From positions 2,407-66,406 of the IMG/VR virus record IMGVR_UViG_3300028888_000124: a stretch of DNA of 64,000 nucleotides, one strand, 5' to 3'. This DNA comes from a virus. The position numbers were made by a program, and so were the translations under genes. The notes under the pieces were generated by a model. It was not told the origin of the DNA. It saw only the letters and a list, made by a program, of their open reading frames with translations, and did not search any database. Each line of letters begins with the position of its first letter. The first letter of the stretch is position 1. This document shows positions 1 through 26,548 of the stretch, in pieces.

Positions 1-22
1 GCTTTGCGCACTGGCCCTGATC

Positions 23-241
23 ATGCTGGGCTTGTCACTGACGGCACTGATCGCCGTGCACTTCTTCCGACTGGGTATGGAGAGCGCGGAAAGGCGGGAG
101 CAAGTGCAAGTGCAGTATGTTCCCGTTTCTGTTCCTCAGCCTGTCTCCCCCGGCTTTACTCAGCGTCTTCCGGGACAGGAACCCGGTTATGTGGAAGAGC
201 TTCCCGATAATGTGATCTATGTGAAAGGATGGATTGAATGA
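23..241 (+). CDS. hypothetical protein, hydrophobic N-terminus; the reading frame is open back to base 2, so the 5-prime end may be truncated by the window edge
   Basis: ORF track. The in-frame upstream codons are open to the window start. Confidence 0.3.
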   Translation: MLGLSLTALIAVHFFRLGMESAERREQVQVQYVPVSVPQPVSPGFTQRLPGQEPGYVEELPDNVIYVKGWIE

Positions 242-735
242 AAAAGAATGATTTGAAAACCGGCATGATGGTGGAATGCCGCAATGGAAATGTGTATACC
301 GTGATGCTCGGTGTAGAAGTTTCTTCGAGTGATGTGCTTGTTCGCCCGGAGGGCTGGATGGGCCTCAACGGTTACGATGATAACATGAAATGTCGTGGAG
401 CCAGGGAATGGGACATTATGAAAGTTTATCAGCCAAAGCTTGAAGCGCACATCGGACACAAGGATTCTTGTAACCTCATTTGGGAGCGGGATGAAGAGTT
501 CACAAAGGAAGATTTGCAGGTCGGAATGAGTGTAATCACCAGGGGAGGCAAACGGTATGATGTCTGCTCGAAAGTCGATGAACAAAAAATTACACATATT
601 CTATTCTGCAATGATGGAACCTGGAGACCTCTGTCTTGTTACGAGGATAATTTGATGTGGTGCGATTTCGCTACCGACGCCGACATCATGAAAGTATACA
701 GCGACCTCCAGCTTGTGTACGAACGTGAAAAATAA
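238..735 (+). CDS. hypothetical protein (165 aa)
   Basis: ORF track. The ATG is preceded by AAAGGATGG. Part of a tightly packed run of co-oriented early genes. Confidence 0.5.
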   Translation: MKKNDLKTGMMVECRNGNVYTVMLGVEVSSSDVLVRPEGWMGLNGYDDNMKCRGAREWDIMKVYQPKLEAHIGHKDSCNLIWERDEEFTKEDLQVGMSVITRGGKRYDVCSKVDEQKITHILFCNDGTWRPLSCYEDNLMWCDFATDADIMKVYSDLQLVYEREK

Positions 736-747
736 GGAGGTGAGAGC

Positions 748-918
748 ATGAGCGAACAATGGAAAACGGACGGCAAGTGCCTGGAGTGCCGCCGTCATGG
801 TTACTGCAAAACCCAGTGCAGCAAAAACAAGCAGGCTGTGCGGGCGTTTATTCTGCAATCGCTGAGAAACAAACTGCAGGGAACCGGCAAAGAAAAGGAG
901 GCCGAACCTGCCCAGTAA
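748..918 (+). CDS. small Cys-rich protein (56 aa, CxxC...C)
   Basis: RBS AAGGAGGTG 5 nt before the ATG; TAA stop. Not in the track because it is under 60 aa. Confidence 0.4.
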   Translation: MSEQWKTDGKCLECRRHGYCKTQCSKNKQAVRAFILQSLRNKLQGTGKEKEAEPAQ

Positions 919-926
919 TAACAAAA

Positions 927-956
927 GTCCCGGAAAAGCAGCAACTCTTCCGGGAC
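927..956 (+). terminator. hairpin gtcccggaa..ttccgggac after the small Cys-rich gene; the U-tract is weak
   Basis: Inverted repeat read directly from the sequence. Confidence 0.3.
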
Positions 957-1060
957 TGCCTTTGAAATCCCCTCTACTACAAGCGGATTCCACGGTAATT
1001 ATACCACATAGCCGTGTGATTCCGCAAGCATCTTGAAAACAGAATACGGAGGAATCACGC

Positions 1061-1711
1061 ATGGCTAAGACGTTCATGTCTATTCACGTCACAAATCACT
1101 CCGAAAACACGAAGATGGCGGGCATCCAGTCCATCGGCACAACATCACTTTGCAATCCCATCTGCCAGAAAAGAAAGGAACAATGCGACGGCGTCTGCGC
1201 TCATTGCTATGCGGATTCCCTGTGCAAGATGCGGAAGAACCTGAATGAGCATTTGATTCAGAATTATGAAAAGCTGACTTCCCGCCTGCTCTCCCCCACG
1301 GAAGCCGCCGCTGTTCCGGTCACCAGCCTGATCGCCCGCATCGAATCCTTCGGCGACGTGGCCAACGTGACGCAGGCGCGGAATTACCTGAGAATCATCC
1401 GCGCACACAAATGGATTCAGTTCGGCATCTGGAGCAAAAACTGGGGCATCTGGCTGGCGGCGTTCAAAAAGGAGGGAAAGCCCAGGAATTGTACTTATGT
1501 GCACAGCAGTATGCACCTGAACTTTGCGGACGGTGTGTATCCCGGCATGCAGAAATATGTGGACCATGTGTTCACCGTGTGGACGAAGGACGTTTATGAG
1601 GAAGTGATCAAGAAGAATCCTTCGTCTGAATGCGCGGGGCTGTGCTGTGCGAAGTGCCAGAAGTGCTACCACAAGGGCGGTAGCTTTTATATTAACGAAC
1701 GGCTCAGGTGA
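1061..1711 (+). CDS. hypothetical Cys-rich protein (216 aa)
   Basis: ORF track. RBS ACGGAGGAA upstream of the ATG. Confidence 0.5.
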   Translation: MAKTFMSIHVTNHSENTKMAGIQSIGTTSLCNPICQKRKEQCDGVCAHCYADSLCKMRKNLNEHLIQNYEKLTSRLLSPTEAAAVPVTSLIARIESFGDVANVTQARNYLRIIRAHKWIQFGIWSKNWGIWLAAFKKEGKPRNCTYVHSSMHLNFADGVYPGMQKYVDHVFTVWTKDVYEEVIKKNPSSECAGLCCAKCQKCYHKGGSFYINERLR

Positions 1712-1754
1712 GCAGGAGTTCCCACATTCACAAGAACACAAAAGGGAGGAACAG

Positions 1755-2342
1755 ATGATGAACGCACCCCGCTACATAGTCACCAATGGCTTTCAGTACA
1801 TGACCAAGTGTTCCGGTAACAGTTTGGGGCCGAAAGAACAGGCGTATTGCTGGAAAACACAGCGAGCAGCGGAGACCCAGGTGACGGTGAAGAACCGGTG
1901 TCATCCCGAATTTTCCTGGATGGTAGAAGAGGTGAAATCAGAGGACGCAACGCTTCAAGTGTTTGATACGGAGGATCGTGCCTTCAAAAATTCTCCTGAG
2001 TTTGTGAAAATGACCGAAGTTTTGTACGATTGTGTCCATAGTATAGGGCGCATCAAAGAAATGATCGAGCAATGCTCCCGTGGATTGTCCGAACAGGATA
2101 AAATTCAGGAAGATTTGCTCCACAAGATTGAGTTTGAATCAACTGGCCGTGGACAAGCCGGTCATTTGTGCGTTCTGCTTCGTGAATGCAGAAAAAAGAG
2201 ACGAGGCTACAAAGATATGCTGACCATGCTGCAGGGTGTCAGCACTGTGGCAATCAACAATGTGTCCACTGAATCACTGAACAATATCCAGGAGAGGATG
2301 AACGGACGGATGTACTCAACCCGTTCAAAGGAGGTGTTCTGA
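1755..2342 (+). CDS. hypothetical protein
   Basis: Internal ATG of track ORF 1647..2342, preceded by AAAGGGAGGAACAG. Confidence 0.5.
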   Translation: MMNAPRYIVTNGFQYMTKCSGNSLGPKEQAYCWKTQRAAETQVTVKNRCHPEFSWMVEEVKSEDATLQVFDTEDRAFKNSPEFVKMTEVLYDCVHSIGRIKEMIEQCSRGLSEQDKIQEDLLHKIEFESTGRGQAGHLCVLLRECRKKRRGYKDMLTMLQGVSTVAINNVSTESLNNIQERMNGRMYSTRSKEVF

Positions 2343-2719
2343 TGACTTATGACGATATCGTAAACAAAGTTGTGGAGCGTTATCGCAACGGAGAATTTCC
2401 CGGCTGGACGATGACGGACCCAGACAGTGCCCAGATGAGGAAGAATTGCGAGGATAGGCGCTATGAATTTGTTGAGCTGACCGAAAACTGGGATGGCGGT
2501 GTTGTAATTCACCATGACACCGTTAGCCTGGATGATTTTTCAGAAGGCGAATTGTGGTTTTTCGGGTCTGTATATTACGAAACCAAGGAGCAGTTTGAAT
2601 CTCAGGGCGCAGACGTTATGGCTGAGTGTATCTTCGAGCAAAATTTTTGGAACGTGGAGAGCTATGGCAACCCTCAAAAAATGCTGAACAAATACTTGAA
2701 GATTGTCAAGGAGGGCTAA
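2342..2719 (+). CDS. hypothetical protein (125 aa)
   Basis: ORF track; start overlaps the upstream stop. Confidence 0.5.
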   Translation: MTYDDIVNKVVERYRNGEFPGWTMTDPDSAQMRKNCEDRRYEFVELTENWDGGVVIHHDTVSLDDFSEGELWFFGSVYYETKEQFESQGADVMAECIFEQNFWNVESYGNPQKMLNKYLKIVKEG

Positions 2720-2722
2720 GAA

Positions 2723-3103
2723 ATGAACCAGCACGAAGTCAAGGTTTCCGAAAGTTTCTTTTTCACGGATCAGGACATGGAAGATATCATGGTCACCGCT
2801 TTGGAGGGCGGCATTGGCTACTGGGCCTGCCTGGATAACACCCTGCCTGAATGGGACGGCCAGCCCAGCGACACACCCACAGCGGTATGGGCCTGGAAGA
2901 TCCTAAGCGAAGGCGGCATCCTCCATTTTCAGGATGCTGAGGATGACGAAGAAAAGTGGGAGTTGACCCTGCAAAAGCTGTACTGCGGCATTGCCAAAAC
3001 CATTCAGGAAACCTACTGGGACGGTGATATGGACTGCATCGACGCGGAGGTGGCAGATATGATCATTCAGTACGCTCTGTTCGGAGAGCTGGTGTATGGC
3101 TGA
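2723..3103 (+). CDS. hypothetical protein (126 aa)
   Basis: ORF track; RBS AAGGAGGGC. Confidence 0.5.
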   Translation: MNQHEVKVSESFFFTDQDMEDIMVTALEGGIGYWACLDNTLPEWDGQPSDTPTAVWAWKILSEGGILHFQDAEDDEEKWELTLQKLYCGIAKTIQETYWDGDMDCIDAEVADMIIQYALFGELVYG

Positions 3104-3273
3104 TGGAAAGCATTTATCAGAAGAACGGCTACAAAAACCGGCGGGATTATCTGATGAACCTATCCGAAGAATACGGCGTGCCTTATGACGCTGTGGTTGC
3201 CGCCGCTCAAGCCCTGGGACCTGATGAAGATTTCGACGGGCTGCCCGCAATGCTGGAAGATTGGGAGGATTGA
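3103..3273 (+). CDS. small hypothetical protein (56 aa)
   Basis: ATG overlaps the upstream stop; the ORF fills the gap before 3277. Confidence 0.35.
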   Translation: MESIYQKNGYKNRRDYLMNLSEEYGVPYDAVVAAAQALGPDEDFDGLPAMLEDWED

Positions 3274-3276
3274 AGC

Positions 3277-3678
3277 ATGAAAACACGTTATCGAGTGCTG
3301 GTGGAAGAAAAGTATTCCAAGTGGGTGGAAGTAACTGTGGAGGACCCGGACTTAATTGATGAAGAGATCGCCGCCATGCAGGAATGCGGCGAAATCGAAT
3401 GGGATCGCGGTGAAGATTTCGATGAATGGAACGTCATCGAGTATGAGCAGAACAGCTACTCTCCCTGTGAGATTGAAATGGTTCGTACCTGGTGCCGGGA
3501 TATGGTTTCCGCTGCGGAAATCTTTGATCCCCAGTGGGTGATGGACAGCATGGATGAATACCAGTGCCAGGACTGGCTGGAGCAGATGCGGGACCGTGGC
3601 ATTACGATTCCAGACCCCGTTACTTCCTCTGATTTGTGGGACGCGGTGGAAAGCCGCAGAAAGGAGAAGAAACAGTGA
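3277..3678 (+). CDS. hypothetical acidic protein (133 aa)
   Basis: ORF track; RBS GGGAGGATTGAAGC before the ATG. Confidence 0.5.
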   Translation: MKTRYRVLVEEKYSKWVEVTVEDPDLIDEEIAAMQECGEIEWDRGEDFDEWNVIEYEQNSYSPCEIEMVRTWCRDMVSAAEIFDPQWVMDSMDEYQCQDWLEQMRDRGITIPDPVTSSDLWDAVESRRKEKKQ

Positions 3679-3806
3679 CAAAATATCGCATTACCCTGGA
3701 AACCGTGCTGGATATCGAAGCGGAAAGCGAGGAAGAAGCGCTGGATAAGCTGCCTGAAACCGTTTCTTTGAATGAAATGTATATCCTGGATGTTGTGGAG
3801 GGTTGA
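3675..3806 (+). CDS. small hypothetical protein (43 aa, GTG start)
   Basis: RBS AAGGAGAAGAAACA then GTG; the ORF fills the gap to 3810. Confidence 0.3.
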   Translation: MTKYRITLETVLDIEAESEEEALDKLPETVSLNEMYILDVVEG

Positions 3807-3809
3807 ACC

Positions 3810-4088
3810 ATGGAAATTGCCACCAGTTTGGGCACTATCACCGCCACCGTCAACAATGATCCCTATTATCCCGGCATTTATCTCTCACTCAAACGGGACG
3901 GTCGCACCTTTCCCATCGTATGGCTGGAAGCAGATCAGGTAGATGAGAAAAATCCAGAGCTGAAAGCCCATGTGTATGCCCCGGAAGAAATTTGGGACGA
4001 ACCGGTATTTTCCATGACCTCTCAGAAAGAAACAGTGGACGCGATGTTTGAGGAGGCGGCGGATGAGTATGCAAAAGATCACCCATGA
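3810..4088 (+). CDS. hypothetical protein (92 aa)
   Basis: ORF track; RBS GGAGGGTTGAACC. Confidence 0.5.
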   Translation: MEIATSLGTITATVNNDPYYPGIYLSLKRDGRTFPIVWLEADQVDEKNPELKAHVYAPEEIWDEPVFSMTSQKETVDAMFEEAADEYAKDHP

Positions 4089-4395
4089 AATGATCCTGCA
4101 TGGCATTCAAAATGGCGTGATTAAAATCACTGACGAAGGAACACACTTTGGCAATCCAGAACACGGCGGTTGTGTGATTTGCGTCATTGGAGACAGTTGG
4201 TTCTACGCTTTCGGATTAACCGGAGAAACCACACCTTTGAACGAATTCCTAAGGGCTGTTCCGATGGAAGATATTGTCCAGGAAATCTTTGATGTGCTGG
4301 ATGGCGACGGTGGGTTTGAAACCGAACTGCCGGACGAATACCTTTACTACTATTTTCTTCTCAAGGAGGCCGAGGATGGAAGAAAAAGCTTATAA
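4063..4395 (+). CDS. hypothetical protein (start ambiguous, 4048 or 4063)
   Basis: ORF track 4048..4395. Confidence 0.4.
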   Translation: MSMQKITHEMILHGIQNGVIKITDEGTHFGNPEHGGCVICVIGDSWFYAFGLTGETTPLNEFLRAVPMEDIVQEIFDVLDGDGGFETELPDEYLYYYFLLKEAEDGRKSL

Positions 4396-4582
4396 AGCCC
4401 GTGTTGAAATAAGTTTTATTGTGGAATTTGATATACAAGCCGCTTATGATGACGATGCGGAGAATGCCGCAGTGGAATGCGCATTGAAGAATGCTGAAAA
4501 AATAGCTGATGACATTCGTTCTTACGGGCGTGTGCGAGTTCCGAATTATGATGCACGAGTTATTGAAATGGAGGAGATATGA
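4376..4582 (+). CDS. hypothetical protein (68 aa)
   Basis: Internal ATG of track ORF 4274..4582, preceded by AAGGAGGCCGAGG. Confidence 0.4.
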   Translation: MEEKAYKARVEISFIVEFDIQAAYDDDAENAAVECALKNAEKIADDIRSYGRVRVPNYDARVIEMEEI

Positions 4583-4854
4583 AAAAAGAAATCGTTACCT
4601 ACCCCGACAAAATTCTCCCCACTGTCCGCTCAGATATGATGAGCTACCACAAGCACGGCTACACATTCGAGGAATACTGCGACCGCAATACCCATGGCAG
4701 AAATTATGGAAAGGAGCTTTACCCCATCTGGCTGGAAACCAAAGCGAAATTTGATAAGGAGCATGATCAGGATGATCGCGTATCAGAAAATCACCGTGAT
4801 GAAGGACGAGAAGAAAGACAAGATCGTCGTAGAACACGAAAGCAACACCTTTGA
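4579..4854 (+). CDS. hypothetical protein; the C-terminal third overlaps the next gene in another frame
   Basis: ORF track. Confidence 0.35.
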   Translation: MKKEIVTYPDKILPTVRSDMMSYHKHGYTFEEYCDRNTHGRNYGKELYPIWLETKAKFDKEHDQDDRVSENHRDEGREERQDRRRTRKQHL

Positions 4855-4921
4855 ATTCTTCGACTGCACCATGGAGGAAGCCGCCGCCTTCTTCAAAAAG
4901 ATGATCGATGAGGAATATTGA
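4763..4921 (+). CDS. small hypothetical protein (52 aa)
   Basis: ATG after TAAGGAGC, in the frame of track ORF 4694..4921. Confidence 0.3.
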   Translation: MIRMIAYQKITVMKDEKKDKIVVEHESNTFEFFDCTMEEAAAFFKKMIDEEY

Positions 4922-4922
4922 C

Positions 4923-5177
4923 ATGAATAAATTCTATTTCACCTTCGGTTCCGACCCCGCTTATCCCTATGGTATCAACGACTATGTGATTGTGGAGGCA
5001 AACGGAGTGAACGAAGCCTGCATCCTGTTCAATCTGGTGCATCCGCCGAGAAAGGGAAGCGATCTTGTCAACTGTGCCTTCTTTTACAGCGAAGAACAAT
5101 TCAATAAGAACTGCGCCCAATATTATCCCGGTGTCCAGCCCAGGGAAATCATCCGCTTGCAGGTTTATCAAAACTAA
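4923..5177 (+). CDS. hypothetical protein
   Basis: Internal ATG of track ORF 4908..5177, after GAGGAA. Confidence 0.45.
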   Translation: MNKFYFTFGSDPAYPYGINDYVIVEANGVNEACILFNLVHPPRKGSDLVNCAFFYSEEQFNKNCAQYYPGVQPREIIRLQVYQN

Positions 5178-5190
5178 AGGAGCGTGCTGC

Positions 5191-5580
5191 ATGGACGAAC
5201 TCTACTTCTTTATGATGAAAACTTGTCCTGAAACTGTGCCGCCTGAACTGAAACGGATGTACCGTTCCAAGTATCGGAAAAAGGAGGATCGTCTCGCCCG
5301 TTCTATCCGGGACTGCCGCTGGAGCGATCTGTTCGACGCGAACAAATATCCCTGGCGTGCTGTCGCAAAGAAAGGCGACTGGGAATCTTATTATGAATAC
5401 CTGATTGTTCCTGACGCGGATGGCTGGGATGATCAGGACATCAGCGAAACGGTGAAGGAGCTGGAAATCCATATCAACAGCGCTTACGATTGTACGGGAA
5501 AGTTTTTTACGCCCTGGGTCATCTGGTCCCGCACAAAAGCAGGCATCGTGATCATCCGCTGTATGAGCATAGATGTGTGA
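5191..5580 (+). CDS. hypothetical protein
   Basis: Internal ATG of track ORF 5065..5580, preceded by AAAGGAGCG. Confidence 0.5.
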   Translation: MDELYFFMMKTCPETVPPELKRMYRSKYRKKEDRLARSIRDCRWSDLFDANKYPWRAVAKKGDWESYYEYLIVPDADGWDDQDISETVKELEIHINSAYDCTGKFFTPWVIWSRTKAGIVIIRCMSIDV

Positions 5581-5594
5581 AAGGAGGAAAAAAC

Positions 5595-5795
5595 TTGGTC
5601 GTTGATAGTCAACTTAGGAGATATGCCCGGCGCGGCATCCTGGCGGAAATGGAGGAATGGACGGCGAAACGCCAGGCGGTCGCTGCTCTGACCGGCGTTC
5701 TTTCGGAGGCTGAATTGGAAAGAATGCTGGCTGGAATCGACCTGGAAATCGAAGCGCTGAAAATTGATCTTGACGAATTGGATGGGAGGATGTAA
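5595..5795 (+). CDS. small coiled-coil protein (TTG start)
   Basis: AAAGGAGGAAAAAAC then TTG, in the frame of track ORF 5490..5795. Confidence 0.4.
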   Translation: MVVDSQLRRYARRGILAEMEEWTAKRQAVAALTGVLSEAELERMLAGIDLEIEALKIDLDELDGRM

Positions 5796-5824
5796 AATAA
5801 GAACATACATTCGCATTTTTCCTC

Positions 5825-5853
5825 TTGACAAACGCCCGGAAATGTGATAAGTT
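5825..5853 (+). promoter_or_regulatory. candidate sigma70-like promoter (TTGACA, 17 nt spacer, TAAGTT) with an adjacent CAAAC..GTTTG palindrome
   Basis: Hexamers read from the sequence, in the intergenic gap before the 5903 gene and the integrase-like gene. Confidence 0.3.
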
Positions 5854-5902
5854 TAATAAGCAAACAATAAAGTTTGTAATTTAAATTGAAAGGAACAAAG
5901 CC

Positions 5903-6136
5903 ATGATGAATAAGATCACCGCCACTTCTTCCCACAATTTTGAAACGAACTCCCGCAAGCTGGAACAGTTCCTTTTCATGCACGATATCCAGCATAAGCG
6001 CTTCTATAAGAACGAGGACAACATGACCGTGTGGGTCTACCCCGATAATGCGGAAGTGCGTGAAGTGGTGAGTGAGTACCGGCGCATTGTCGCCCGCCGT
6101 CAGGCCCGGATGAACAGCAGCACCTACACCGCGTAA
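5903..6136 (+). CDS. hypothetical protein (77 aa)
   Basis: ORF track; RBS GAAAGGAACAAAGCC. Confidence 0.5.
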   Translation: MMNKITATSSHNFETNSRKLEQFLFMHDIQHKRFYKNEDNMTVWVYPDNAEVREVVSEYRRIVARRQARMNSSTYTA

Positions 6137-6150
6137 AGGAGGAACAAAAG

Positions 6151-7074
6151 ATGCGCCCCATGATTCAGTTCTATGTGCAGTCCATGCGTGTGAAGGGCAG
6201 AAAACCCATGCCCTCCACCGCAGCCCATGTGTCCGAAATGCTGGACCGTGTGTTCAATACCCTGGAAAGCAGCTACGGCGTCGTGATGCGGGATAATAAA
6301 ATCACGGGGCTGAACACCGAAGTTCTCCAGCGCTGGATCAATGACGCTTCGGAAAGCTGGAAGCCCGCCACGTTCAACAACTACATCAGCATTCTCAATC
6401 CCTTTCTCCGCTGGGCGCACAAAATGAAGGGAAGCGATGGCGAATATATCGAGGATGATCTTTCCATCCTCCTGCGCACCCAATCTTTGCCGAACCCGGA
6501 GGATCTGCCGGAAGAAGATCGCCCCAAGAGCAAGTATTATTCCGTGGATCAAGTGGAAAATCTTCTGCATGGCGGCTATGGGCGCAACAATATCCGGGAC
6601 ACAGCCATTGTCGCCATGATTCTTTGGTCCTCCCTTCGTGTGTCGGAGCTGTGCCAGATCACGGTGGGCAATTTCCGCCAAGGCAAAGCGGCGCACACCG
6701 TTCGGGTGCAGCGGAAGGGCAGCGTGGCCATGAAGGATGTTGAAATCGCAGACCCCGCGTATTCCTATGTGGAAGCGTACCTGAAAACCAGAAAGGAGCT
6801 GCGGGACGATCAGCCCTTGTTCATGACCACACATGGGCAGCCCTGCAACAGGACACAGATTTACAAATGCCTGTCATTCAAGCAGAAGCAATTGGGCCTT
6901 GCCACTGGCCCCCACGCTCTGCGCCACACCTCCCTCTCCGCCCAGGAAAAGGAAGCGCCGCTCAGTGTGGTGCGCGATATCGCCAACCACAAGGACTTCC
7001 GTGTCACCAACCGCTACACTCACTCCACCCACGAAGAACGGCTTGCCGCCCTGAACGCGCTGCCGTGGAAGTAA
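6151..7074 (+). CDS. tyrosine site-specific recombinase (XerC/D-like integrase)
   Basis: Catalytic motifs R..., HALRHT (HxxR) and NRYTH with the catalytic Tyr; RBS AAGGAGG. Confidence 0.85.
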   Translation: MRPMIQFYVQSMRVKGRKPMPSTAAHVSEMLDRVFNTLESSYGVVMRDNKITGLNTEVLQRWINDASESWKPATFNNYISILNPFLRWAHKMKGSDGEYIEDDLSILLRTQSLPNPEDLPEEDRPKSKYYSVDQVENLLHGGYGRNNIRDTAIVAMILWSSLRVSELCQITVGNFRQGKAAHTVRVQRKGSVAMKDVEIADPAYSYVEAYLKTRKELRDDQPLFMTTHGQPCNRTQIYKCLSFKQKQLGLATGPHALRHTSLSAQEKEAPLSVVRDIANHKDFRVTNRYTHSTHEERLAALNALPWK

Positions 7075-22067: not shown

Positions 22068-22070
22068 CGA

Positions 22071-23090
22071 ATGACGCTTGATGAAATCAAAACTTAGGTC
22101 GCTTCACCGACCTACGACTTCCTGCGTACCGATCCCCATTTGCAGGGCCGCATGGCGATGCTGTGTCTTGGCGGTTCTCATGCCTATGGCACGAATACCG
22201 AAACGAGTGATCTGGATCTTCGGGGCTGCGCCTTGAACCGTCCTGAAGAACTGCTTGGCCTTTCCCATTTTGAACAAGTTCGCAACGACGAGCTGGACGT
22301 ATGTATCTATTCCTTCAATAAAATGGTGCCGCTCCTGTATGGCTGCAACCCTAACATCATTGAGATCCTGGGCTGTAAACCGGAGCACTATTTGTTCCTG
22401 TCGGATGTTGGGAAAGAGTTGATCAGCAACCGTCATATGTTCCTGTCTCAGCGGGCATCGTATACGTTTGGGGGCTATGCCTTTTCCCAGCTTCGCCGCC
22501 TGGAGAACGCTATTGCGCGGGACAAACTGCCGCAAGCGCAAAAGGAAGGCCACATCTGCAACAGTATCGAAAAGGTGATCCGTAACTTCAACACGGAAAG
22601 CCGCGCCAAACCCGTTTCCTATATGCTTTTCCTGGCCGATGCCGTACACGATGATCTTGAAAAGGAAACGTTCATCACCACCACATTGGATATGTATCCT
22701 GTTCGTGATCTCAAGGCTTTTGTGAATGACATCAACAATGTGATTAGGGATTATGAAAACGATTTGCACGGGCGCAACAAAAAGAAGGATGACCTCCATC
22801 TGAACAAGCACGCCATGCACCTTGTCCGATTGTATCTGATGGCGATTGATATCCTGGAAAAGGAAGAGATCATCACGTACCGCGAAGCTGACCACGATCT
22901 GCTGATGGATATCCGGCATGGGAAATATCAGCTTGAAGACGGCACGTTCGATTCTGCTTTCTTCGATATGGTCAACGACTTATCCAAGAAAATGGATTAC
23001 GCAAAGGCCAATACCTCCCTTCCCCGTTCGCCCGATATGAGACGCATTGAGGAATTTATGATTGAGGTCAATAAAAAATCAATTGTTTAA
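22071..23090 (+). CDS. nucleotidyltransferase (Pol-beta-like NTase fold, GS..DLDL); in-frame TAG at 22095
   Basis: RBS AAAAGGAG then ATG at 22071, in frame with track ORF 22140; GGSHAYGTNTETSDLDL motif. Confidence 0.65.
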
Positions 23091-23101
23091 GGAGAGCTTG
23101 A

Positions 23102-23941
23102 ATGAACTATACAGGCTATAAAACTGTTCGGTAGGACGATTCTTTGATTCCGACCCTCTACACAGAGAAGGATAAAAACTGGTTTGACTTATTGGAAAAT
23201 CAATATCTTTTGATTGTGGATGAAAATGGTGCGCCGGTTGACCGCTATAAGTGGCAGGATGGAAAGCATAAGGCGGTATATAAAAAGCCCGTTGAATCCA
23301 TGGCGATGGACAAGGTGAAGCCAAAAAACCCGGAGCAGGCATTTGCCCTGGATATGTTGCTTGATCCAACGATCACCGTGAAGGTTATGACTGGATCATT
23401 TGGTTCTGGCAAAACTATGCTGGCCTGCTGCGCCGCTTTCCAAATGATGCAGGCAACGCTGTATGATAAAATCGTTTGGATCAGAAACAACATCGAGGTA
23501 AAGGACACCAACTCCATCGGCGCTTTGCCCGGAACATATGCCGATAAAATGTCGGTTTGGGCCATGCCCCTGGCGGATCACCTGGGCGGCGTAGAGGAAC
23601 TGAACAAACAAATCATGTTCGGCAAGGTCGAGGTGGAGCACCTGGGTTTTCTTCGCGGACGCGATATCAAGAACAGCATTATCATTTGTTCGGAAGCCGA
23701 GCATTTGACCCGCGAGCATGTGCAGCTTCTGCTTGGCCGTGTGGCGGAAGGGTCTGTGCTGATTCTTGAGGGAGACTGGAAGCAGATCGATAAAAAGGCA
23801 TTTGAAAAGGACAACGGCCTGCACGCCGCCATTGACTGCCTGACGGGAAACCGCCTTTTTGGTTATGTTCATTTGAATGAATCCGTTCGCAGCGAGACCG
23901 CGAAGCTGGCTGACTTGCTGGATAAAAAAGAAGGAGATTAA
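23102..23941 (+). CDS. phoH: PhoH-like ATPase; in-frame TAG at 23132
   Basis: Walker A GSFGSGKT and ICSEAEHLT; RBS AAGGAG then ATG at 23102, in frame with track ORF 23144. Confidence 0.8.
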
Positions 23942-23945
23942 ACGA

Positions 23946-24560
23946 ATGTATATTGAAACGCCAAATCTGATTATTGATACACCGGAAAACAAACTCGCCC
24001 AGCCTGATGAAATCAGTTATTACGAATAGGAAAAGAAGCGAAAGCTGTTTCTGGATTATGATGTGAACGCGGATGTGATGGCCATTGTGCGGATGATTCT
24101 GCGCTGGAATATGGAAGACGCCGGAACCCCCCCCGAATCCCGCAAACCCATCTGGCTCTACATTGAATCCATTGGCGGCAACGCGATTTATATGTGGACT
24201 TTGATCGACGCGATCTTCGCCTCCGTTACGCCTGTGTATACTGTGAATATGGGGTTGGCTGCGTCCGCTGCTGGGCTCATCTTTATGGCGGGTTCCAAAC
24301 GATTCATGATGCCGCGTGCCAAGGTGATGATTCATGAAGGCTCCGCTTCCTTTGAAGGCGACGCGGGCAAGGTGCTGGATTTTTCCGATGCCTACAAAAA
24401 AGATTTGAAAGCAACCCGCGATTTTATCCTGGATCATACTTCCATTCCCAAGGCACAGCTCACCAAAAAACGAAGCAACGATTGGGAATTGGATTCTGCG
24501 CTTTGTTTGCAGTATCATGTGTGCGATCAGATCGTGCAAAGCCTGGAAGATATTCTATAA
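23946..24560 (+). CDS. ClpP-like serine protease subunit; in-frame TAG at 24027
   Basis: IESIGGNAIY..MGLAASAAG..MIHEGS is ClpP-like; RBS AAGGAG then ATG at 23946, in frame with track ORF 24063. Confidence 0.7.
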
Positions 24561-24570
24561 AAATTCTTGG

Positions 24571-24597
24571 CCCGGTGAAATCCGGGTCTTTTTTTGT
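24571..24597 (+). terminator. Rho-independent terminator (cccgg-tgaaat-ccggg plus T-run), merging into the TTTGTTTCCATTAT motif at 24593..24606
   Basis: Read directly from the sequence. Confidence 0.55.
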
Positions 24598-24650
24598 TTC
24601 CATTATAAGCGGATATCAATTTTTCAAATAACGATAAAGGAGCTTGAACG

Positions 24651-25091
24651 ATGATTTACCGTGAAGAAAAGATGAATCTGTTTTCTGTTCCCCAGGGTTA
24701 TATGCTGGCTCACTGCATCAGCGGTGACTTTGCTTTGGGCGCTGGCGTTGCCAAAGAAATGGACAGGGTATTCAATATGAAGGAGATGCTGAATCTTCTG
24801 TGGGGACCCATCAGCCCGATGAAGGATAAGTGGTCCGCCCCCTGCTGTCTCCCCTGTGCCAACGTGTTTAACCTGGTAACCAAAGAAAAATACTGGCATA
24901 AGCCTACGCTGGCCTCCCTTCGCACTGCGCTGGAAGAAATGTGTTCCCTCGCTGTGGAAATGGGCGTCACCAAAATTGCCATGCCCAAGATCGGCTGCGG
25001 CCTGGATCGCCTGGACTGGGAAAAAGTAAGCCCTATGATCCAGGAGATTTTCGCTGATACGGATATCGAAATTCTGGTGTGCGTATTATGA
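24651..25091 (+). CDS. macrodomain protein (ADP-ribose binding / processing)
   Basis: 146 aa with a macro-domain-like pattern (NLFSVPQGYMLAHCISGDFALGAGVA ... GVTKIAMPKIGCGLDRLDW). Confidence 0.6.
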   Translation: MIYREEKMNLFSVPQGYMLAHCISGDFALGAGVAKEMDRVFNMKEMLNLLWGPISPMKDKWSAPCCLPCANVFNLVTKEKYWHKPTLASLRTALEEMCSLAVEMGVTKIAMPKIGCGLDRLDWEKVSPMIQEIFADTDIEILVCVL

Positions 25092-25321
25092 GTGAAGACA
25101 AGTATGAAGGTTTGACCGTTGATTTCATTGACCGCCCGCTGCCTGAATCGCATCCCGATTTCGTGATGAGGATTAGCTGGTCCTGTCCGGGGCTTGGGTT
25201 TGGCACAGTGGATTTTATCTGGAGAGGCAACGATCTTCACGCTGATACGGAACATATGAGTAAAGCTTTCTTGGAGCGTCTGATGGCATTGGTGCTGCAG
25301 CGTGTGGTCATTGATGGTTGA
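25088..25321 (+). CDS. small hypothetical protein
   Basis: ORF track frame 25079..25321. Confidence 0.35.
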   Translation: MSEDKYEGLTVDFIDRPLPESHPDFVMRISWSCPGLGFGTVDFIWRGNDLHADTEHMSKAFLERLMALVLQRVVIDG

Positions 25322-25333
25322 GAGGAATACAAC

Positions 25334-26548
25334 ATGAAAGAACAAAGCGTTGTTTATCTGGTGAAGGTCGAGCCAGGAGCCAATAATAACAAATACTGGA
25401 AAGCAATGGCTCAAGGCGATCATTTCAACGTTGAGTATGGAAGGGTCGGCGGAACACCGCAGAAGTATTCCTATCCTATTTCCCAATGGAATAAAAAGTA
25501 CAACGAGAAGATAAAAAAAGGTTACGTTGACCGAACGGAATTGGTAGAGGATCTGATTGAAAAAGAAAAGCCCGCTACGCCGGATGGCTATCGTGCTATT
25601 GAAAACAAGGTGATCGCGGATATCGTGTCACGCTTGCAGGCCATGGCAAAGAAAGCGGTCAGCGAAAACTACACCATATCCTCCAGCAAGGTCACCATGG
25701 CAATGGTGTCTGCCGCTCAGGATCAATTAGCAAAGATGGCGGGCATGGCCGCCGCTTCCGTGGAAGAATTCAACCGCGCCTTGATTGAGCTGTTCGGTAT
25801 CATTCCCCGCAAGATGGGCCATGTATCATCCTATATTGCCACCAGCCAAAAGGAGTTTGGCCGTATTCTTGAACGCGAACAGGATCTGCTGGATGTGATG
25901 CGCGGTCAGGTGTATGTGCCGTCCAAGGAAAGCGAAATTGCCCCTCCTCCAAACGGTGAAGCCCACACGATCCTGGAAGAAAAGGGCCTTGTGTTTGAAG
26001 AAGTAACGGACGATGATATCGCCGTGATCAAATCCGCGCTTGGATCCTGTGCCGATAAATTCTGCCGCGCATGGCGAGTTACCAACCTGGCCACACAAAA
26101 ACGCTTTGATGAATATGTGCAGGGCGGCGTGAAGACAAAGCTTCTCTGGCACGGCTCCCGGAATGAAAACTGGTGGAGCATTGTGGGCAGCGGGCTGGTG
26201 TTGCGTCCCACCAATGCGGTCATCACCGGCAAGATGTTTGGCTATGGTATTTACTTTGCCACGAAAGCGCGAAAGTCTCTTGGGTACACCTCTCTTTCCG
26301 GCTCCTATTGGGCGCATGGTTCTTCCCCATCCGCGTTCATGGGGCTGTATGAAGTTGCCTACGGCAAGCCTTACGATGTGCATTCCTTTGATTCCAAATA
26401 TTATTCCCTGAATTATGAAGGGCTGCAGAAGATGTGTCCTGGGGCGAACTGCCTGCACGCGCACGAGGGCCAGATGCTTCGCAATGATGAAATCATTGTG
26501 TATCAGGAATGCCAAACGACAATCAAATATCTGGTGGAGCTCAAATAA
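25334..26548 (+). CDS. WGR-domain plus PARP catalytic-domain protein (H-Y-E triad present)
   Basis: N-terminal WGR-like YLVKVEPGANNNKYWKAMAQG..YGRVG; catalytic LLWHGSRNENWWSIVGSGL, GYGIYFATKA and NDEIIVYQ. Confidence 0.75.
   Translation: MKEQSVVYLVKVEPGANNNKYWKAMAQGDHFNVEYGRVGGTPQKYSYPISQWNKKYNEKIKKGYVDRTELVEDLIEKEKPATPDGYRAIENKVIADIVSRLQAMAKKAVSENYTISSSKVTMAMVSAAQDQLAKMAGMAAASVEEFNRALIELFGIIPRKMGHVSSYIATSQKEFGRILEREQDLLDVMRGQVYVPSKESEIAPPPNGEAHTILEEKGLVFEEVTDDDIAVIKSALGSCADKFCRAWRVTNLATQKRFDEYVQGGVKTKLLWHGSRNENWWSIVGSGLVLRPTNAVITGKMFGYGIYFATKARKSLGYTSLSGSYWAHGSSPSAFMGLYEVAYGKPYDVHSFDSKYYSLNYEGLQKMCPGANCLHAHEGQMLRNDEIIVYQECQTTIKYLVELK

What the first reader, a model, noticed from the sequence alone, without database searches (positions are those of the whole stretch)
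1..26548. TAG placement looks like a translational gate: absent from the first 7.6 kb, then clustered at codons 4 to 17 of many genes
Genes from 23 to 7674 are contiguous, each with its own RBS, and none needs TAG read-through. Starting at 7835, many genes carry their first TAG very early:
- RNA ligase, codon 4;
- NrdD, codon 4;
- NTase, codon 9;
- SSB, codon 10;
- holin, codon 10;
- RecA-like, codons 11 and 16;
- PhoH, codon 11;
- Cas4-like, codon 15;
- Zn-ribbon, codon 17.

An early TAG aborts translation cheaply until a suppressor tRNA is available, after which full-length product appears. That would couple expression of replication, lysis and DGR genes to suppressor expression. The integrase module is TAG-free and compositionally distinct.
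Basis: inference. Interest (0 to 1): 0.7.

Follow-up and report, generated by a model that had tools for sequence, protein, structure and literature searches.

The report
Amber codons clustered at gene starts
This phage reads the stop codon TAG as leucine and puts most of these codons in the first 30 codons or so of its replication and repair genes. That placement fits a cheap "licence check" that lets the genes be translated only when a suppressor tRNA is present, although no such tRNA lies on this contig.

Summary
Each gene starts at an ATG with a 4-8 nt Shine-Dalgarno. Homologues align across the TAGs, so these are not start-calling artefacts. On the + strand, 13 of 21 in-frame TAGs lie in codons 2-20 (about 2.2 expected, p~1e-8). 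In the minus-strand lysis/DGR/fibre block, TAG is three times denser and more spread out, though 8 of 15 still lie within 50 codons.

TAG encodes Leu, not Gln. Homologues carry Leu at these sites, and relatives encode a class-II tRNA-Leu(CUA) immediately after the DNA polymerase gene.

The 5' bias recurs across related phages. In the Leu-type clade, TAG makes up 24% of Leu codons at positions 6-15 and 3.6% beyond codon 100. Orthologues often carry their early TAG at different columns.

The TAG-free leading operon ends at a terminator, and the matching region is TAG-free in relatives.

Not supported:
- The ~70 kb source contig has no suppressor tRNA, and it is incomplete.
- TAG-free and TAG-bearing genes are interspersed within operons.
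- The integrase block is not compositionally distinct.

Whether this is an adaptive gate or passive cost-minimisation is unresolved. It is a new variant of known phage stop-codon recoding.

The parts
1..7674 (+). Leading operon with no in-frame TAG. It holds about 20 small ORFan genes plus a tyrosine recombinase at 6151-7074.
   Evidence: Gene calls. Pfam Phage_integrase hits. The leading TAG-free run has P=0.019. The equivalent upstream regions are TAG-free in relatives L128, L144, L117 and L047.
7698..7728 (+). Intrinsic-terminator-like hairpin (13-bp stem plus T-run). It separates the TAG-free block from the first TAG-bearing gene.
7835..8830 (+). AAA_24 (Sak4-like) ATPase gene. TAGs at codon 11 (7865-7867) and codon 16 (7880-7882), just before the Walker A motif.
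   Evidence: Pfam match starts at residue 14. Relatives read MIQLQKAKRALAKVKLAIGG and MIQLQKAKRSQVKVKLALAG, so TAG16 = Leu and TAG11 = L/Q. The same TAG column is present in 3 of 5 Leu-clade relatives.
8848..9258 (+). SSB gene. TAG at codon 10 (8875-8877), within the motif GR[TAG]T.
   Evidence: Pfam SSB match covers residues 1-100. PDB SSBs have L or V at this position. Homologues have Leu in 6 of 6. The next in-frame start is at codon 59.
18678..19472 (+). PD-(D/E)XK Cas4-like nuclease gene. TAG at codon 15 (18720-18722).
   Evidence: Pfam PDDEXK_1 match covers residues 9-244. Homologues have Leu in 13 of 13. Relatives carry TAG at this column or at nearby columns, codons 17, 19 and 27.
22071..24560 (+). 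Three consecutive TAG-bearing genes: RlaP-type NTase (TAG codon 9, 22095-22097), PhoH (codon 11, 23132-23134) and ClpP (codon 28, 24027-24029). A terminator follows at 24569-24588.
   Evidence: Pfam hits. The PhoH N-terminal motif Y-[TS]-G-[YF]-[KR] is conserved upstream of the TAG. Relatives carry their PhoH TAG at other columns: L025 one column earlier, L034/L035 at codon 7. The ClpP site is Leu in 12 of 13 homologues. Terminator.
27067..30291 (+). DNA polymerase III alpha-like gene, TAG-free if it starts at ATC 27067.
   Evidence: No canonical start codon lies upstream of the PHP HxH motif. The ATC aligns with the ATG of the L151/L118 orthologues.
30292..30359 (+). Empty suppressor slot. 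Relatives carry tRNA-Leu(CUA) right after the polymerase gene. Here there is only a 14-bp-stem terminator hairpin (30306-30336).
   Evidence: Synteny. Hairpin. No tRNA found.
30360..36047 (+). Unit holding three early-TAG genes interspersed with TAG-free genes. TAG-bearing: RNA ligase (TAG codon 4, 30369-30371), NrdD (codon 4, 33728-33730) and a Zn-ribbon gene (codon 17, 35853-35855). TAG-free: Band_7, RemA-like, ThyX and a glutaredoxin-like gene.
   Evidence: Pfam hits. RNA ligase reads MRK*ASI against MRHLASV in L030, and homologues have Leu in 11 of 12. NrdD reads MSM*IDKY against CEMLVNKY in L034. Leu-clade NrdD genes all carry TAG at codon 13, where the window has TTG.
42704..44230 (+). 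DUF1599 gene (TAG codon 14, 42743-42745) and RuvC resolvase gene 43718-44230 (TAGs at codons 14, 23, 89, 119 and 165).
   Evidence: Pfam hits. RuvC reads AD[TAG]S where 10 of 10 homologues read (C/L/A)DLS. Relatives carry early RuvC TAGs at 3-4 different columns. In L037/L038 this is nearly the only credible in-frame TAG.
46848..49701 (+). Two further early-TAG genes of unknown function: 46848-47420 (TAG codons 14 and 132) and 49387-49701 (codon 11).
   Evidence: The PHROG 1709 match covers residues 2-97 and so spans the TAG in 49387.
53576..64000 (-). Late block on the minus strand, with TAG denser and more spread out.
- holin-like 53576-54037, TAG codon 10
- 54037-54324, codon 47
- 54335-54766, codons 9 and 37
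- SH3/amidase 54770-55561, codons 37, 94 and 204
- DGR reverse transcriptase 55747-56952, codons 22 and 221
- RT-2 RNA 56951-57174
- Avd 57337-57750, codon 22
- LRR_5/DUF6273 protein 57818-58936, codons 47, 69 and 283
- 2041-aa fibre-like protein from 59004, starting outside the window at about 65129, codons about 1025 and 1494
   Evidence: TAG density is 4.1 per 1000 codons against 1.3 in + strand genes (p=0.0017). Eight of 15 TAGs lie within the first 50 codons (p=1.3e-4). The LRR motif CTA[TAG]ETV matches the canonical Leu.

Best explanation
**What it is.** The window comes from a phage, probably of a Firmicute host, sampled in gut or rumen-type metagenomes. In it TAG is a leucine codon. 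By analogy with relatives, TAG is decoded by a phage-type class-II tRNA-Leu with anticodon CUA, in competition with host release factor 1.

**Where the TAGs sit.** TAG makes up about 9% of Leu codons in the first 20 codons of + strand genes and under 1% afterwards. The genes affected are replication, recombination, nucleotide-metabolism and RNA-repair genes. TAG is more frequent and more spread out in the lysis/DGR/tail-fibre block.

**Proposed mechanism.** An early TAG acts as a low-cost licence check.
- Without enough suppressor, the ribosome terminates after 3-27 residues. The peptide is still inside the exit tunnel. It is therefore harmless and cheap, and it has no partial activity or dominant-negative effect.
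- With suppressor, Leu is inserted and the full-length protein is made.
- The TAG-free leading operon with its recombinase, the second integrase, and core enzymes (primase-helicase, polymerase, ligase, NAD salvage) can be translated by a naive host. Nucleases (RuvC, Cas4-like), SSB/Sak4, NrdD, ClpP, PhoH, holin and the DGR need the suppressor.

**Shown.** TAG read-through, Leu identity, the positional bias, its recurrence and turnover in relatives, the suppressor gene and its position in relatives, and the TAG-free leading unit bounded by a terminator.

**Inferred.** RF1 competition, the source of the suppressor for this phage, any timing, and that the placement is selected for gating and is not merely tolerated.
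For: **TAG is read through**
- Each gene has an ATG with a strong SD upstream of the TAG, and genes are tightly tiled.
- Pfam and PDB alignments span the TAGs.
- No curated gene ends in TAG: 56 end in TAA and 47 in TGA.
- The sequence is identical in six independent samples.

**TAG = Leu**
- Homologues show Leu opposite the window's TAGs: SSB 6/6, Cas4 13/13, ClpP 12/13, RNA ligase 11/12, RuvC 10/10.
- TAG alternates with CTN/TTG codons at aligned Leu columns.
- Relatives encode CUA tRNAs with a Leu-type D-loop, a long variable arm and A73-CCA. These are 74-77% identical to phage tRNA-Leu(UAA).

**Positional bias**
- The Leu-type clade was analysed over 120 unique genes with homology-validated N-termini. 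TAG as a share of Leu codons is 0.10, 0.24, 0.09, 0.09 and 0.036 for codons 2-5, 6-15, 16-30, 31-100 and >100. Early enrichment has p=2e-9.
- The bias is also seen in the wider NrdD-linked set, which includes loci with Gln-type suppressors.

**More than tolerance**
- At codons 6-15, TAG (24%) exceeds TTG (15%), its only synonymous one-step neighbour.
- NrdD codon 13 is TAG in 4/4 relatives and RemA-like codon 6 in 10/11. Ordinary Leu columns are rarely uniform.
- Independent early TAG columns occur in NrdD, RuvC, PhoH and Cas4 orthologues.
- The window's NrdD has TTG at the clade's TAG column and a TAG at codon 4 instead.

**Context and block structure**
- The +4 base after TAG is a purine in 29/36 cases (58% expected, p=0.004) and in 14/15 early TAGs.
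- A terminator at 7698-7728 bounds the TAG-free unit. Regions upstream of AAA_24 are TAG-free in relatives.
- TAG is denser in the lysis/DGR/fibre block. This matches the published model for recoded phages (10.1101/2021.08.26.457843).
Against: - No suppressor tRNA lies in the window or in the rest of the ~70 kb contig. The syntenic slot is empty.
- TAG-bearing and TAG-free genes share operons, so this is not a block-wise switch.
- In relatives the suppressor gene is co-oriented inside the module it would gate. Genes upstream of it, including the polymerase, carry TAGs. This leaves little room for a temporal delay.
- The gradient continues beyond codon 30 and appears in every gene class, as a pure cost model predicts.
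- Counts are modest. Relatives are phylogenetically non-independent, and a few columns (RemA codon 6, NrdD codon 13) contribute many of the early TAGs.
- Gene and start calling was home-made, though it was checked by homology.
- No expression or proteomic data exist.
Confidence: 0.5

Rival explanations
1. Passive cost-minimisation with no regulatory role. TAG is an ordinary but error-prone Leu codon, because RF1 competes with the suppressor. The cost of a failed read-through grows with the length already translated and with the harm done by long truncated proteins. Purifying selection therefore removes late TAGs and tolerates early ones. This is the 'nonsense-error' logic of position-dependent codon usage.
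For: - TAG share declines smoothly and monotonically with codon index in the Leu-type clade, and there is a 5' skew even in the late block.
- TAG freely alternates with other Leu codons at aligned columns.
- TAG-bearing genes are interspersed with TAG-free genes and span many functions.
- Heavily recoded relatives have many mid-gene TAGs.
- The theory of position-dependent selection against nonsense errors is established (PMC13271495, PMC4288200, PMC4069614).
Against: - At codons 6-15, TAG (24%) is commoner than TTG (15%), and far commoner than it is anywhere else in the gene.
- TAG is near-invariant at NrdD codon 13 and RemA-like codon 6 while ordinary Leu columns turn over.
- The same genes (NrdD, RuvC, PhoH, Cas4) acquire early TAGs at different columns repeatedly.
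- In L037/L038 the early RuvC TAG is almost the only credible TAG in 13-22 kb.
- TAG share dips at codons 2-5 (0.10 against 0.24, p=0.04), where the cost of termination should be lowest.
Confidence: 0.35
2. Start-calling artefact. The TAGs are ordinary stops lying upstream of the true start codons, and the apparent upstream ATGs are fortuitous.
For: Two TAGs at 17089 and 18287 do lie upstream of the real ATGs, in or near the SD. PhoH and RNA ligase have a weak alternative TTG start with an SD after the TAG. Public gene callers truncated these genes.
Against: - Conserved N-terminal residues lie upstream of and around the TAGs in SSB, AAA_24, PDDEXK, PhoH, RNA ligase, NrdD and RuvC.
- The next in-frame start in SSB is at codon 59.
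- Mid-gene TAGs occur in RuvC, the reverse transcriptase, the LRR protein and the 2041-aa fibre protein.
- No gene ends in TAG.
- The same pipeline finds 0-1 'early TAG' per ~30 genes in standard-code relatives.
Confidence: 0.02
3. No phage-controlled gate, because the suppressor is supplied constitutively in trans. The source could be a host that carries tRNA-Leu(CUA), or a co-resident prophage or helper. TAG would then be just a rare sense codon throughout infection, and the 5' bias would be a rare-codon 'ramp'.
For: No tRNA gene lies on the ~70 kb contig, and the syntenic slot is empty. Published surveys also find many recoded phages without suppressor genes (PMC10607447; PMC13037316).
Against: - The contig is incomplete. 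Both terminal genes are truncated, the ends do not overlap, and the head and packaging genes are missing. The tRNA may simply be unassembled.
- Relatives encode their own suppressors, which implies that hosts lack one.
- No bacterium with TAG=Leu is known (own knowledge).
- Other rare Leu codons (CTA, TTA) show little or no 5' enrichment.
Confidence: 0.1

Closest known systems
Stop-codon recoding in phages as a regulator of late and lysis genes (Borges et al., bioRxiv 10.1101/2021.08.26.457843; the MgCod 'block-wise code' concept; Peters et al., PMC9523058)
   Same: In-frame TAG is used as a sense codon in a phage. Integrase and early genes are compatible with the standard code. Recoded codons are denser in the lysis and structural genes. 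Relatives encode suppressor tRNA(CUA). The idea that translation of some genes waits for the suppressor is the same.
   Different: - TAG is Leu here, not Gln. That paper states that only TAG->Gln and TGA->Trp were seen in phages whose code differs from the host's.
- The striking feature here is within-gene position: TAGs cluster in the first ~30 codons. That paper does not mention position.
- Recoding here is sparse and interspersed, not block-wise.
- No suppressor lies on this contig.
prfB (RF2) autoregulation by an early in-frame UGA (PMC12421855, seen)
   Same: An in-frame stop codon near the start of the ORF makes protein output depend on the balance between termination and an alternative decoding event. 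Failure costs only a short peptide.
   Different: prfB uses a +1 frameshift promoted by an internal SD, at a single gene, and it senses RF2. Here decoding stays in frame through a suppressor tRNA, at about 15 genes, and it would sense the suppressor-to-RF1 ratio.
Amber suppressor tRNA-Leu (E. coli supP/leuX, Su6) and suppressor mutants of phage T4 tRNA genes (own knowledge)
   Same: This is a class-II tRNA-Leu whose anticodon can become CUA without loss of charging, because LeuRS does not read the anticodon. It inserts Leu at UAG in competition with RF1. A purine at +4 favours suppression.
   Different: Those are laboratory mutants that suppress occasional nonsense mutations. Here a natural phage lineage uses the pairing genome-wide.
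Genetic codes 16 and 22 (chlorophycean and Scenedesmus mitochondria, TAG->Leu) (own knowledge)
   Same: The codon has the same meaning, TAG = Leu.
   Different: Those are organellar genomes in which the whole genome is reassigned, with no host/parasite code conflict and no positional bias reported.
Position-dependent codon usage, 5' 'ramp' and nonsense-error theory (PMC4288200, PMC4069614, PMC13271495)
   Same: Codons with a high chance of aborting translation are predicted to be tolerated near the 5' end. The gradient seen here has the predicted direction.
   Different: The effect here is far larger: 13-fold in the window and about 7-fold in the clade. It concerns a reassigned stop codon, not slow sense codons. 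There are also signs that specific early TAGs are retained.

Membership tests
Amber-recoded phage (alternative-code phage in the sense of Borges et al.) | In-frame TAG inside conserved protein-coding genes, with homologues aligning across it | tested here: met
Amber-recoded phage (alternative-code phage in the sense of Borges et al.) | TAG not used as a terminator | tested here: met
   Of 103 curated genes, 56 end in TAA and 47 in TGA. Only 3 genes have a TAG within 30 codons of the C-terminus that could act as a leaky stop.
Amber-recoded phage (alternative-code phage in the sense of Borges et al.) | Phage-encoded suppressor tRNA with anticodon CUA | tested here: not met
   None was found in the window or the flanks of the ~70 kb contig by ARAGORN or by Rfam in gathering and E-value modes. 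The contig is incomplete. Relatives have one. Published surveys say only 35-40% of recoded phages have one, so this feature is not strictly required.
Amber-recoded phage (alternative-code phage in the sense of Borges et al.) | Integrase and early genes compatible with the standard code, with recoded codons enriched in lysis and structural genes | tested here: met
   Both tyrosine recombinases and the leading operon are TAG-free. TAG density is 4.1 per 1000 codons in the late block against 1.3 elsewhere, p=0.0017.
Genetic code 15 (TAG = Gln) | TAG aligns with Gln in homologues, and the suppressor is tRNA-Gln-like | tested here: not met
   Leu dominates at the TAG sites. The site-weighted Gln count is 0.44 of 18 sites. 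The suppressors in the relatives that share the synteny are Leu-type. A Gln-like 75-nt CUA tRNA exists only in other relatives (L068-72, L091).
Pyrrolysine decoding | tRNA-Pyl with pylS/pylBCD genes, and TAG in methylamine methyltransferase-type genes | tested here: not met
   ARAGORN's 'tRNA-Pyl' label only reflects the CUA anticodon. The tRNAs are class II and Leu-, Ser- or Gln-like. The TAG sites align with Leu. No Pyl genes appeared among the Pfam hits obtained, but not every ORF was scanned.
prfB-type programmed frameshift at an early stop | Reading continues in the +1 frame after the stop, promoted by an upstream SD-like element | tested here: not met
   Homology continues in frame 0 across every TAG.
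Temporal (early/late) translational switch driven by a late-expressed suppressor | The suppressor gene lies in a transcription unit expressed before, and separately from, the TAG-bearing genes, and TAG-bearing genes form a distinct temporal class | tested here: inconclusive
   No suppressor is present here. In relatives it sits between the polymerase and RemA-like/ThyX/NrdD genes, co-oriented with TAG-bearing genes on both sides. No expression data exist.

The most novel reading that the evidence does not exclude
A clade of phages, probably infecting Firmicutes, has independently reassigned TAG to Leu, Ser or Gln. It uses amber codons placed within the first ~30 codons as a distributed, actively maintained 'amber lock'. 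The lock licenses translation of nucleases, recombination, nucleotide-metabolism, lysis and DGR genes only when a suppressor tRNA out-competes RF1. Lock positions turn over between columns like regulatory sites. The phage in this window has lost the suppressor gene from its conserved slot after the polymerase gene. It would therefore depend on a suppressor supplied from elsewhere. Possible sources are an unassembled genome segment, the host, a helper, or a host tRNA reprogrammed by its unusually rich tRNA-repair gene set (Thg1-like, RlaP NTase, two RNA ligases).
Probability: 0.25. Interest if true: 0.85.

Novelty: new variant of a known kind. Interest (0 to 1): 0.65.

Why it matters
Stop-codon recoding in phages is proposed to regulate late and lysis genes, but the evidence so far is about which genes carry recoded codons. 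It says nothing about where in the gene those codons sit.

A strong and reproducible 5' concentration of the recoded codon is a new quantitative signature. It bears directly on mechanism. It implies that termination by RF1 still competes during infection. It also implies that the phage either exploits this as a cheap checkpoint or is shaped by its cost.

The regulatory hypothesis becomes testable in two ways. One is reporter assays comparing early and late TAG positions, with and without tRNA-Leu(CUA). The other is phylogenetic retention tests across the thousands of recoded phage genomes already public.

The work also adds TAG->Leu, and probably TAG->Ser in sister lineages, to the phage reassignments. 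I found no report of TAG->Leu in phages in the papers searched. This matters for gene calling, because public pipelines truncated or split these genes. It also matters for the design of code-based biocontainment.

Tried and rejected
- **Nucleotide search of phage GenBank records.** Megablast with 20 kb of the window found no match. The closest cultured relatives are Bacillus Tsamsa-like phages, at 39% polymerase identity.
- **Relatives found through the DUF2828 protein (L005-L015).** They are distant, non-syntenic and use TAG as a stop, so they were uninformative.
- **Search for the suppressor tRNA.** I ran ARAGORN and Rfam (gathering and E-value thresholds) on the window and both contig flanks. 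I also ran blastn-short with six relatives' suppressor tRNAs against the rebuilt contig. Nothing was found.
- **Metagenome-wide pattern scan for Leu-type CUA tRNAs.** It found 43 loci, mostly relatives. None came from this phage. Viral-contig scans for Leu-type and Ser-type patterns did not hit the nearest relatives' contigs either.
- **Circular closure of the contig.** The ends do not overlap. The 5' end lies in a tandem repeat and both terminal genes are cut.
- **Host identification through prophage relatives in GTDB genomes.** There was one 38% hit, in a MAG binned as Bacteroidales, which is not informative.
- **Generality test in an unrelated TAG->Gln phage (BK025033, phAss-1 group).** The record is not in the collection.
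- **AT-richness or generic rare-codon ramp as the cause.** I rejected it as the sole cause. CTA shows no 5' enrichment and TTA only a slight one.
- **A shared sequence motif around the early TAGs.** There is only a purine at +4 (TAGG in 8 of 15), and no longer motif.
- **Literature.** I found no report of TAG->Leu in phages, or of within-gene positional bias of recoded stops, in the searchable library.

Full report
**What the window is**

The 64 kb window is bases 2427-66426 of a 69,949-bp metagenomic contig (ENA ERZ27257205 k141_3889370). The stretches retrieved from five other samples (JGI, Logan) are 100% identical to it, so the TAGs are not sequencing errors. I rebuilt the full contig from the flanks. 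Its 5' end lies in a tandem repeat, both terminal genes are truncated, and the ends do not overlap. The last gene at the 3' end is tail-protein-like, and I recognised no terminase, portal or capsid gene. The contig is therefore an incomplete phage genome. Related contigs are 60-130 kb.

Genes run on the + strand to about 53.2 kb. A minus-strand block follows from 53.6 kb onward. Shine-Dalgarno sites are strong, and the closest cultured relatives are Bacillus siphophages at 39% polymerase identity. This suggests a Firmicute host, which is an inference.

Yes. I called genes with TAA/TGA as the only stops and with SD-based starts, then curated them to 103 genes, 98 of them confident. I found six more:
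- DUF1599, codon 14
- RuvC, codons 14 and 23
- 46848, codon 14
- 49387, codon 11
- 54335(-), codon 9
- ClpP, codon 28

The obvious artefact would be an ordinary TAG stop lying upstream of a mis-called start. Four results exclude it.
- Every such gene starts at an ATG with a 4-8 nt SD at 6-10 nt, usually 1-17 nt after the previous stop. Starts downstream of the TAG lack an SD, except weak TTGs in PhoH and RNA ligase.
- Pfam matches begin before or at the TAG in SSB (residues 1-100), AAA_24 (from residue 14) and PDDEXK_1 (from residue 9).
- Related phages conserve the residues upstream of and around the TAG. AAA_24 reads MIQLQKAKRS*ARIK*ALGG against MIQLQKAKRALAKVKLAIGG. RNA ligase reads MRK*ASI against MRHLASV. 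NrdD reads MSM*IDKY against CEMLVNKY. In PhoH the Y-[TS]-G-[YF]-[KR] motif is conserved. SSB reads GR*T against GRLT.
- No curated gene ends in TAG: 56 end in TAA and 47 in TGA.

Two TAGs at 17089 and 18287 do lie upstream of the real ATGs, and I excluded them.

**Statistics**

- Of 36 in-frame TAGs in confident genes, 15 lie in codons 2-20. About 3.4 are expected (binomial p=3e-7 against all codons or against Leu codons; KS p=6e-6).
- On the + strand, 13 of 21 are early (p~1.5e-8). Fifteen of 21 lie within 28 codons, and none lies between codons 29 and 60.
- TAG makes up 9.4% of Leu-type codons early and 0.7% later.
- Permuting TAGs within the TAG-bearing genes never reached the observed count in 200,000 trials.
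- The control rare Leu codon CTA is unbiased (4 of 41 early), and TTA is barely enriched.
- The minus-strand block holds a holin-like gene, an SH3/amidase, the DGR reverse transcriptase, Avd, LRR/DUF6273 targets and a 2041-aa fibre-like protein. TAG there is three times denser (4.1 against 1.3 per 1000 codons, p=0.0017), and 8 of 9 genes carry it.
- In that block TAG is not enriched in the first 20 codons (2 of 15). It is still 5'-skewed, with 8 of 15 within 50 codons (p=1.3e-4).

**The TAG-free first 7.6 kb**

The statement is true. The block consists of ORFans plus a tyrosine recombinase. It ends at a strong terminator-like hairpin at 7698-7728, just before the first TAG-bearing gene. As a leading run of 19 TAG-free genes it has P=0.019. 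A run that long somewhere in the window has P=0.28, and a 12-gene TAG-free run follows at 9327-18676.

Independent support comes from relatives. In L128, L144, L117 and L047, the genes upstream of the AAA_24 gene are also TAG-free, and TAGs begin at AAA_24. Both integrases are TAG-free, a motif already described for recoded prophages. The claim of distinct composition does not hold for the first block, whose GC is 0.46-0.52. Only the region at 52-54 kb is lower, at 0.42.

**What TAG encodes**

TAG encodes leucine. Homologues from 140 related loci show Leu opposite the window's TAGs:

| Site | Homologues with Leu |
|---|---|
| SSB | 6 of 6 |
| Cas4-like | 13 of 13 |
| ClpP | 12 of 13 |
| RNA ligase | 11 of 12 |
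| RuvC codon 14 | 10 of 10 |

Ile, Met and Val are the next most common residues, and Gln is negligible. The BspA-type LRR motifs CTA*ETV and TT*KDV place TAG at the canonical Leu. At the codon level, TAG alternates with CTG, CTC, CTT and TTG in aligned Leu columns.

**Suppressor tRNAs**

None is present in the window or in either contig flank. I checked with ARAGORN, Rfam at gathering and permissive thresholds, and blastn-short using the relatives' suppressor tRNAs.

Relatives found through NrdD carry CUA tRNAs of three kinds:
- Class II with a tRNA-Leu-type D-loop, a long variable arm and A73-CCA (L047, L048, L057, L115). Three of the four are most similar to phage tRNA-Leu(UAA), at 74-77% identity. 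L048 scores about equally (69%) against tRNA-Leu and tRNA-Ser.
- Class II with G73, resembling the neighbouring tRNA-Ser(UGA) (L039, L040).
- A 75-nt tRNA-Gln-like type (L068-72, L091).

In the Ser-type loci, TAG aligns with T, S, A and N, on a small sample.

A metagenome-wide scan for the Leu-type pattern returned 43 loci, most from phages 50-63% identical to this one. They share a conserved gene order: AAA_24, SSB, sigma-like, primase-helicase, Cas4-like, Pol III alpha, [tRNA-Leu(CUA)], RemA-like, ThyX, NrdD, Zn-ribbon, RuvC. In the window, the slot after the polymerase gene (30292-30359) holds only a 14-bp-stem terminator hairpin. An RNA ligase gene and a Band_7 gene follow. So this phage has lost or relocated the gene. 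Whether it lies in the unassembled part of the genome is unknown.

**Does the 5' bias generalise?**

Yes. I analysed the Leu-type clade over 120 unique genes whose N-termini are validated by homologue alignments (187 TAGs):

| Codon positions | TAG share of Leu-type codons |
|---|---|
| 2-5 | 0.10 |
| 6-15 | 0.24 |
| 16-30 | 0.09 |
| 31-100 | 0.09 |
| >100 | 0.036 |

Early enrichment has p=2e-9. In the wider NrdD-linked set, which includes loci with Gln-type suppressors, heavily recoded loci have 36 of 212 TAGs in codons up to 20, against 6.2% expected (p=3e-8).

Gene by gene:
- RemA-like carries TAG at codon 6 in 10 of 11 relatives. This gene lies immediately downstream of the suppressor.
- NrdD carries TAG at codon 13 in all Leu-clade relatives. 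The window has TTG at that column and a TAG at codon 4 instead.
- AAA_24 shares the window's codon-11 column in 3 of 5 relatives.
- Cas4-like, PhoH and RuvC carry early TAGs at three or four different columns in different lineages.
- In L037/L038 the early RuvC TAG is almost the only credible in-frame TAG in 13-22 kb.

**Mechanism**

What is shown is a reassigned amber codon whose usage falls steeply with distance from the start codon. That is hard to explain unless termination still competes with decoding.

My preferred reading (confidence 0.5) is a low-cost licence check. Without enough tRNA-Leu(CUA), ribosomes terminate after 3-27 residues. The peptide is still inside the exit tunnel, so it costs little and cannot be partly active or dominant-negative. 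With suppressor, the full-length protein is made. Placing the TAG early is what makes such a lock tight for nucleases (RuvC, Cas4-like), holin, ClpP and multimeric proteins (SSB, NrdD).

Four results argue for more than passive tolerance:
- At codons 6-15, TAG (24%) exceeds TTG (15%), its only synonymous one-step neighbour.
- TAG is near-invariant at two early columns while ordinary Leu columns turn over.
- The same genes gain early TAGs in parallel at different columns.
- TAG share dips at codons 2-5 (p=0.04).

The +4 base after TAG is a purine in 29 of 36 cases (p=0.004) and in 14 of 15 early TAGs. In E. coli this context favours suppression (own knowledge).

The main rival (0.35) is pure cost-minimisation. 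It follows the nonsense-error logic of position-dependent codon usage (PMC13271495, PMC4288200), and it predicts the same gradient.

Several results argue against a temporal switch:
- TAG-bearing and TAG-free genes are interspersed in the same apparent operons. Terminators lie at 7698, 24569, 26553, 30306 and 37524.
- In relatives the suppressor gene is co-oriented within the module it would gate.
- In relatives even the polymerase gene upstream of the suppressor carries TAGs.

A threshold or licence therefore fits better than an early/late timer. Such a licence could act as a safety catch against leaky expression in lysogeny or in cells that lack the suppressor.

**Comparison with what is known**

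Stop-codon recoding in phages is established. So are TAG-free integrases, enrichment in lysis and structural genes, and the idea that recoded genes wait for a suppressor (10.1101/2021.08.26.457843; PMC9523058). That work reports only TAG->Gln and TGA->Trp for phages whose code differs from the host's, and it does not discuss within-gene position. I found no report of TAG->Leu in phages, or of a 5' positional bias, in the searchable library.

The closest mechanistic analogue is the early in-frame UGA of prfB (PMC12421855). This case is therefore a new variant of a known kind.

**Limits**

Gene and start calling was my own, although I checked it by homology. Counts are modest. Relatives are not phylogenetically independent. 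The host is unknown. There are no expression or proteomic data.

Noticed in passing
window 27039-27112: The DNA polymerase III alpha-like gene has no ATG, GTG or TTG upstream of its PHP HxH motif (YVNYHRHSHYS). An in-frame ATC at 27067 follows an SD-like AAAGGAAGTGG and aligns exactly with the ATG of the L151/L118 orthologues. The in-frame TAG at 27049 aligns with the codon-4 TAG of the L047 orthologue (MTL*EKGIPYVNYHRHS), but no start codon precedes it. A 10-bp hairpin at 27039-27062 would sequester the SD. This could be a non-canonical AUC start or some other regulated initiation.
   Followed up: partly
related loci L039:19512-19598, L040:12306-12392, L047:8930-9014, L048:7318-7401, L057:6278-6362, L115:8773-8859, L068:15484-15558: Phages sharing this NrdD/PhoH/RuvC gene pool carry three different kinds of amber suppressor tRNA. 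One is Leu-like (class II, A73). One is Ser-like (class II, G73, next to a tRNA-Ser(UGA)). One is Gln-like (75 nt). In the Ser-type loci TAG aligns with T, S, A and N. This suggests that TAG has been reassigned to different amino acids in sister lineages.
   Followed up: partly
window 14514-18318 and 24651-26548: An NAD-centred gene set is present. It holds a nicotinamidase/isochorismatase (15103-15666), NAD synthase (15666-16454), an NMNAT-like cytidylyltransferase (16464-17111) and NAPRTase (17101-18318). A separate TAG-free unit encodes a Macro-domain protein (24651-25091) and a WGR+PARP-catalytic-domain protein (25334-26548). It looks like NAD+ reconstitution and ADP-ribosylation counter-defence.
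   Followed up: no
window 19465-23090, 30360-31451, 44687-45628: The window has an unusually rich RNA/tRNA-repair repertoire: an ATP-dependent ligase (19465-20763), a Thg1-like 3'-5' nucleotidyltransferase (21288-22067), a RlaP NTase (22071-23090), an RNA ligase with a PHA02142 OB domain (30360-31451) and a T4 Rnl1-type RNA ligase (44687-45628). This may matter for how tRNAs are maintained or altered in a phage that lacks its own suppressor gene on this contig.
   Followed up: no
window 55747-58936 (-) and 59004-60641 (-): A diversity-generating retroelement is present. It holds a reverse transcriptase (55747-56952), an Rfam RT-2 RNA (56951-57174, 127 bits), Avd (57337-57750) and two LRR_5+DUF6273 candidate target proteins (57818-58936 and the C-terminus of the 2041-aa protein). 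All the protein genes carry in-frame TAGs.
   Followed up: partly
window 10402-12000 and 12523-14505 (- strand ORFs opposite + strand genes): The DUF2828 gene (10438-11991) and the primase-helicase gene (12595-14430) contain no TTA, CTA or TCA codon at all. About 6.8 and 8.1 are expected (P=0.001 and 0.0003). This leaves antisense ORFs of 532 and 660 codons that cover the whole genes. The cause is unknown. It could be strong codon bias or a real antisense constraint.
   Followed up: partly
window 26578-26953 (-), flanked by 26552-26574: A lone minus-strand gene of about 125 aa sits inside the + strand region. It appears to encode a membrane-like protein with a GAGGTGAT SD. It lies between a bidirectional terminator hairpin and the polymerase gene, and the public + strand ORF calls overlap it.
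   Followed up: no
L157:11393-12994 and L047:14461-16062: In Leu-type relatives, a large serine recombinase has no TAG in its body but carries three TAGs at codons 526, 529 and 532 of 533. It would therefore end at TAG under the standard code and gain a short extension when the suppressor is present. Borges et al. noted similar C-terminal extensions for integrases.
   Followed up: no
window 9327-9875: A sigma-factor-like gene (weak PHROG matches) lies just after SSB. It is TAG-free here, but relatives carry TAG at codon 2 or 3 (L118, L128, L144). It is a candidate regulator of later transcription.
   Followed up: no
L016:1-100 (5' contig flank, outside the window): The contig starts inside a tandem repeat (CACCGGGCACCGCAACACCGGGGACGGCAA...) within a truncated gene. 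Two other assemblies that extend this far upstream (L016, L017) end within about 200 bp of the same place. This repeat is probably why the genome does not close.
   Followed up: partly
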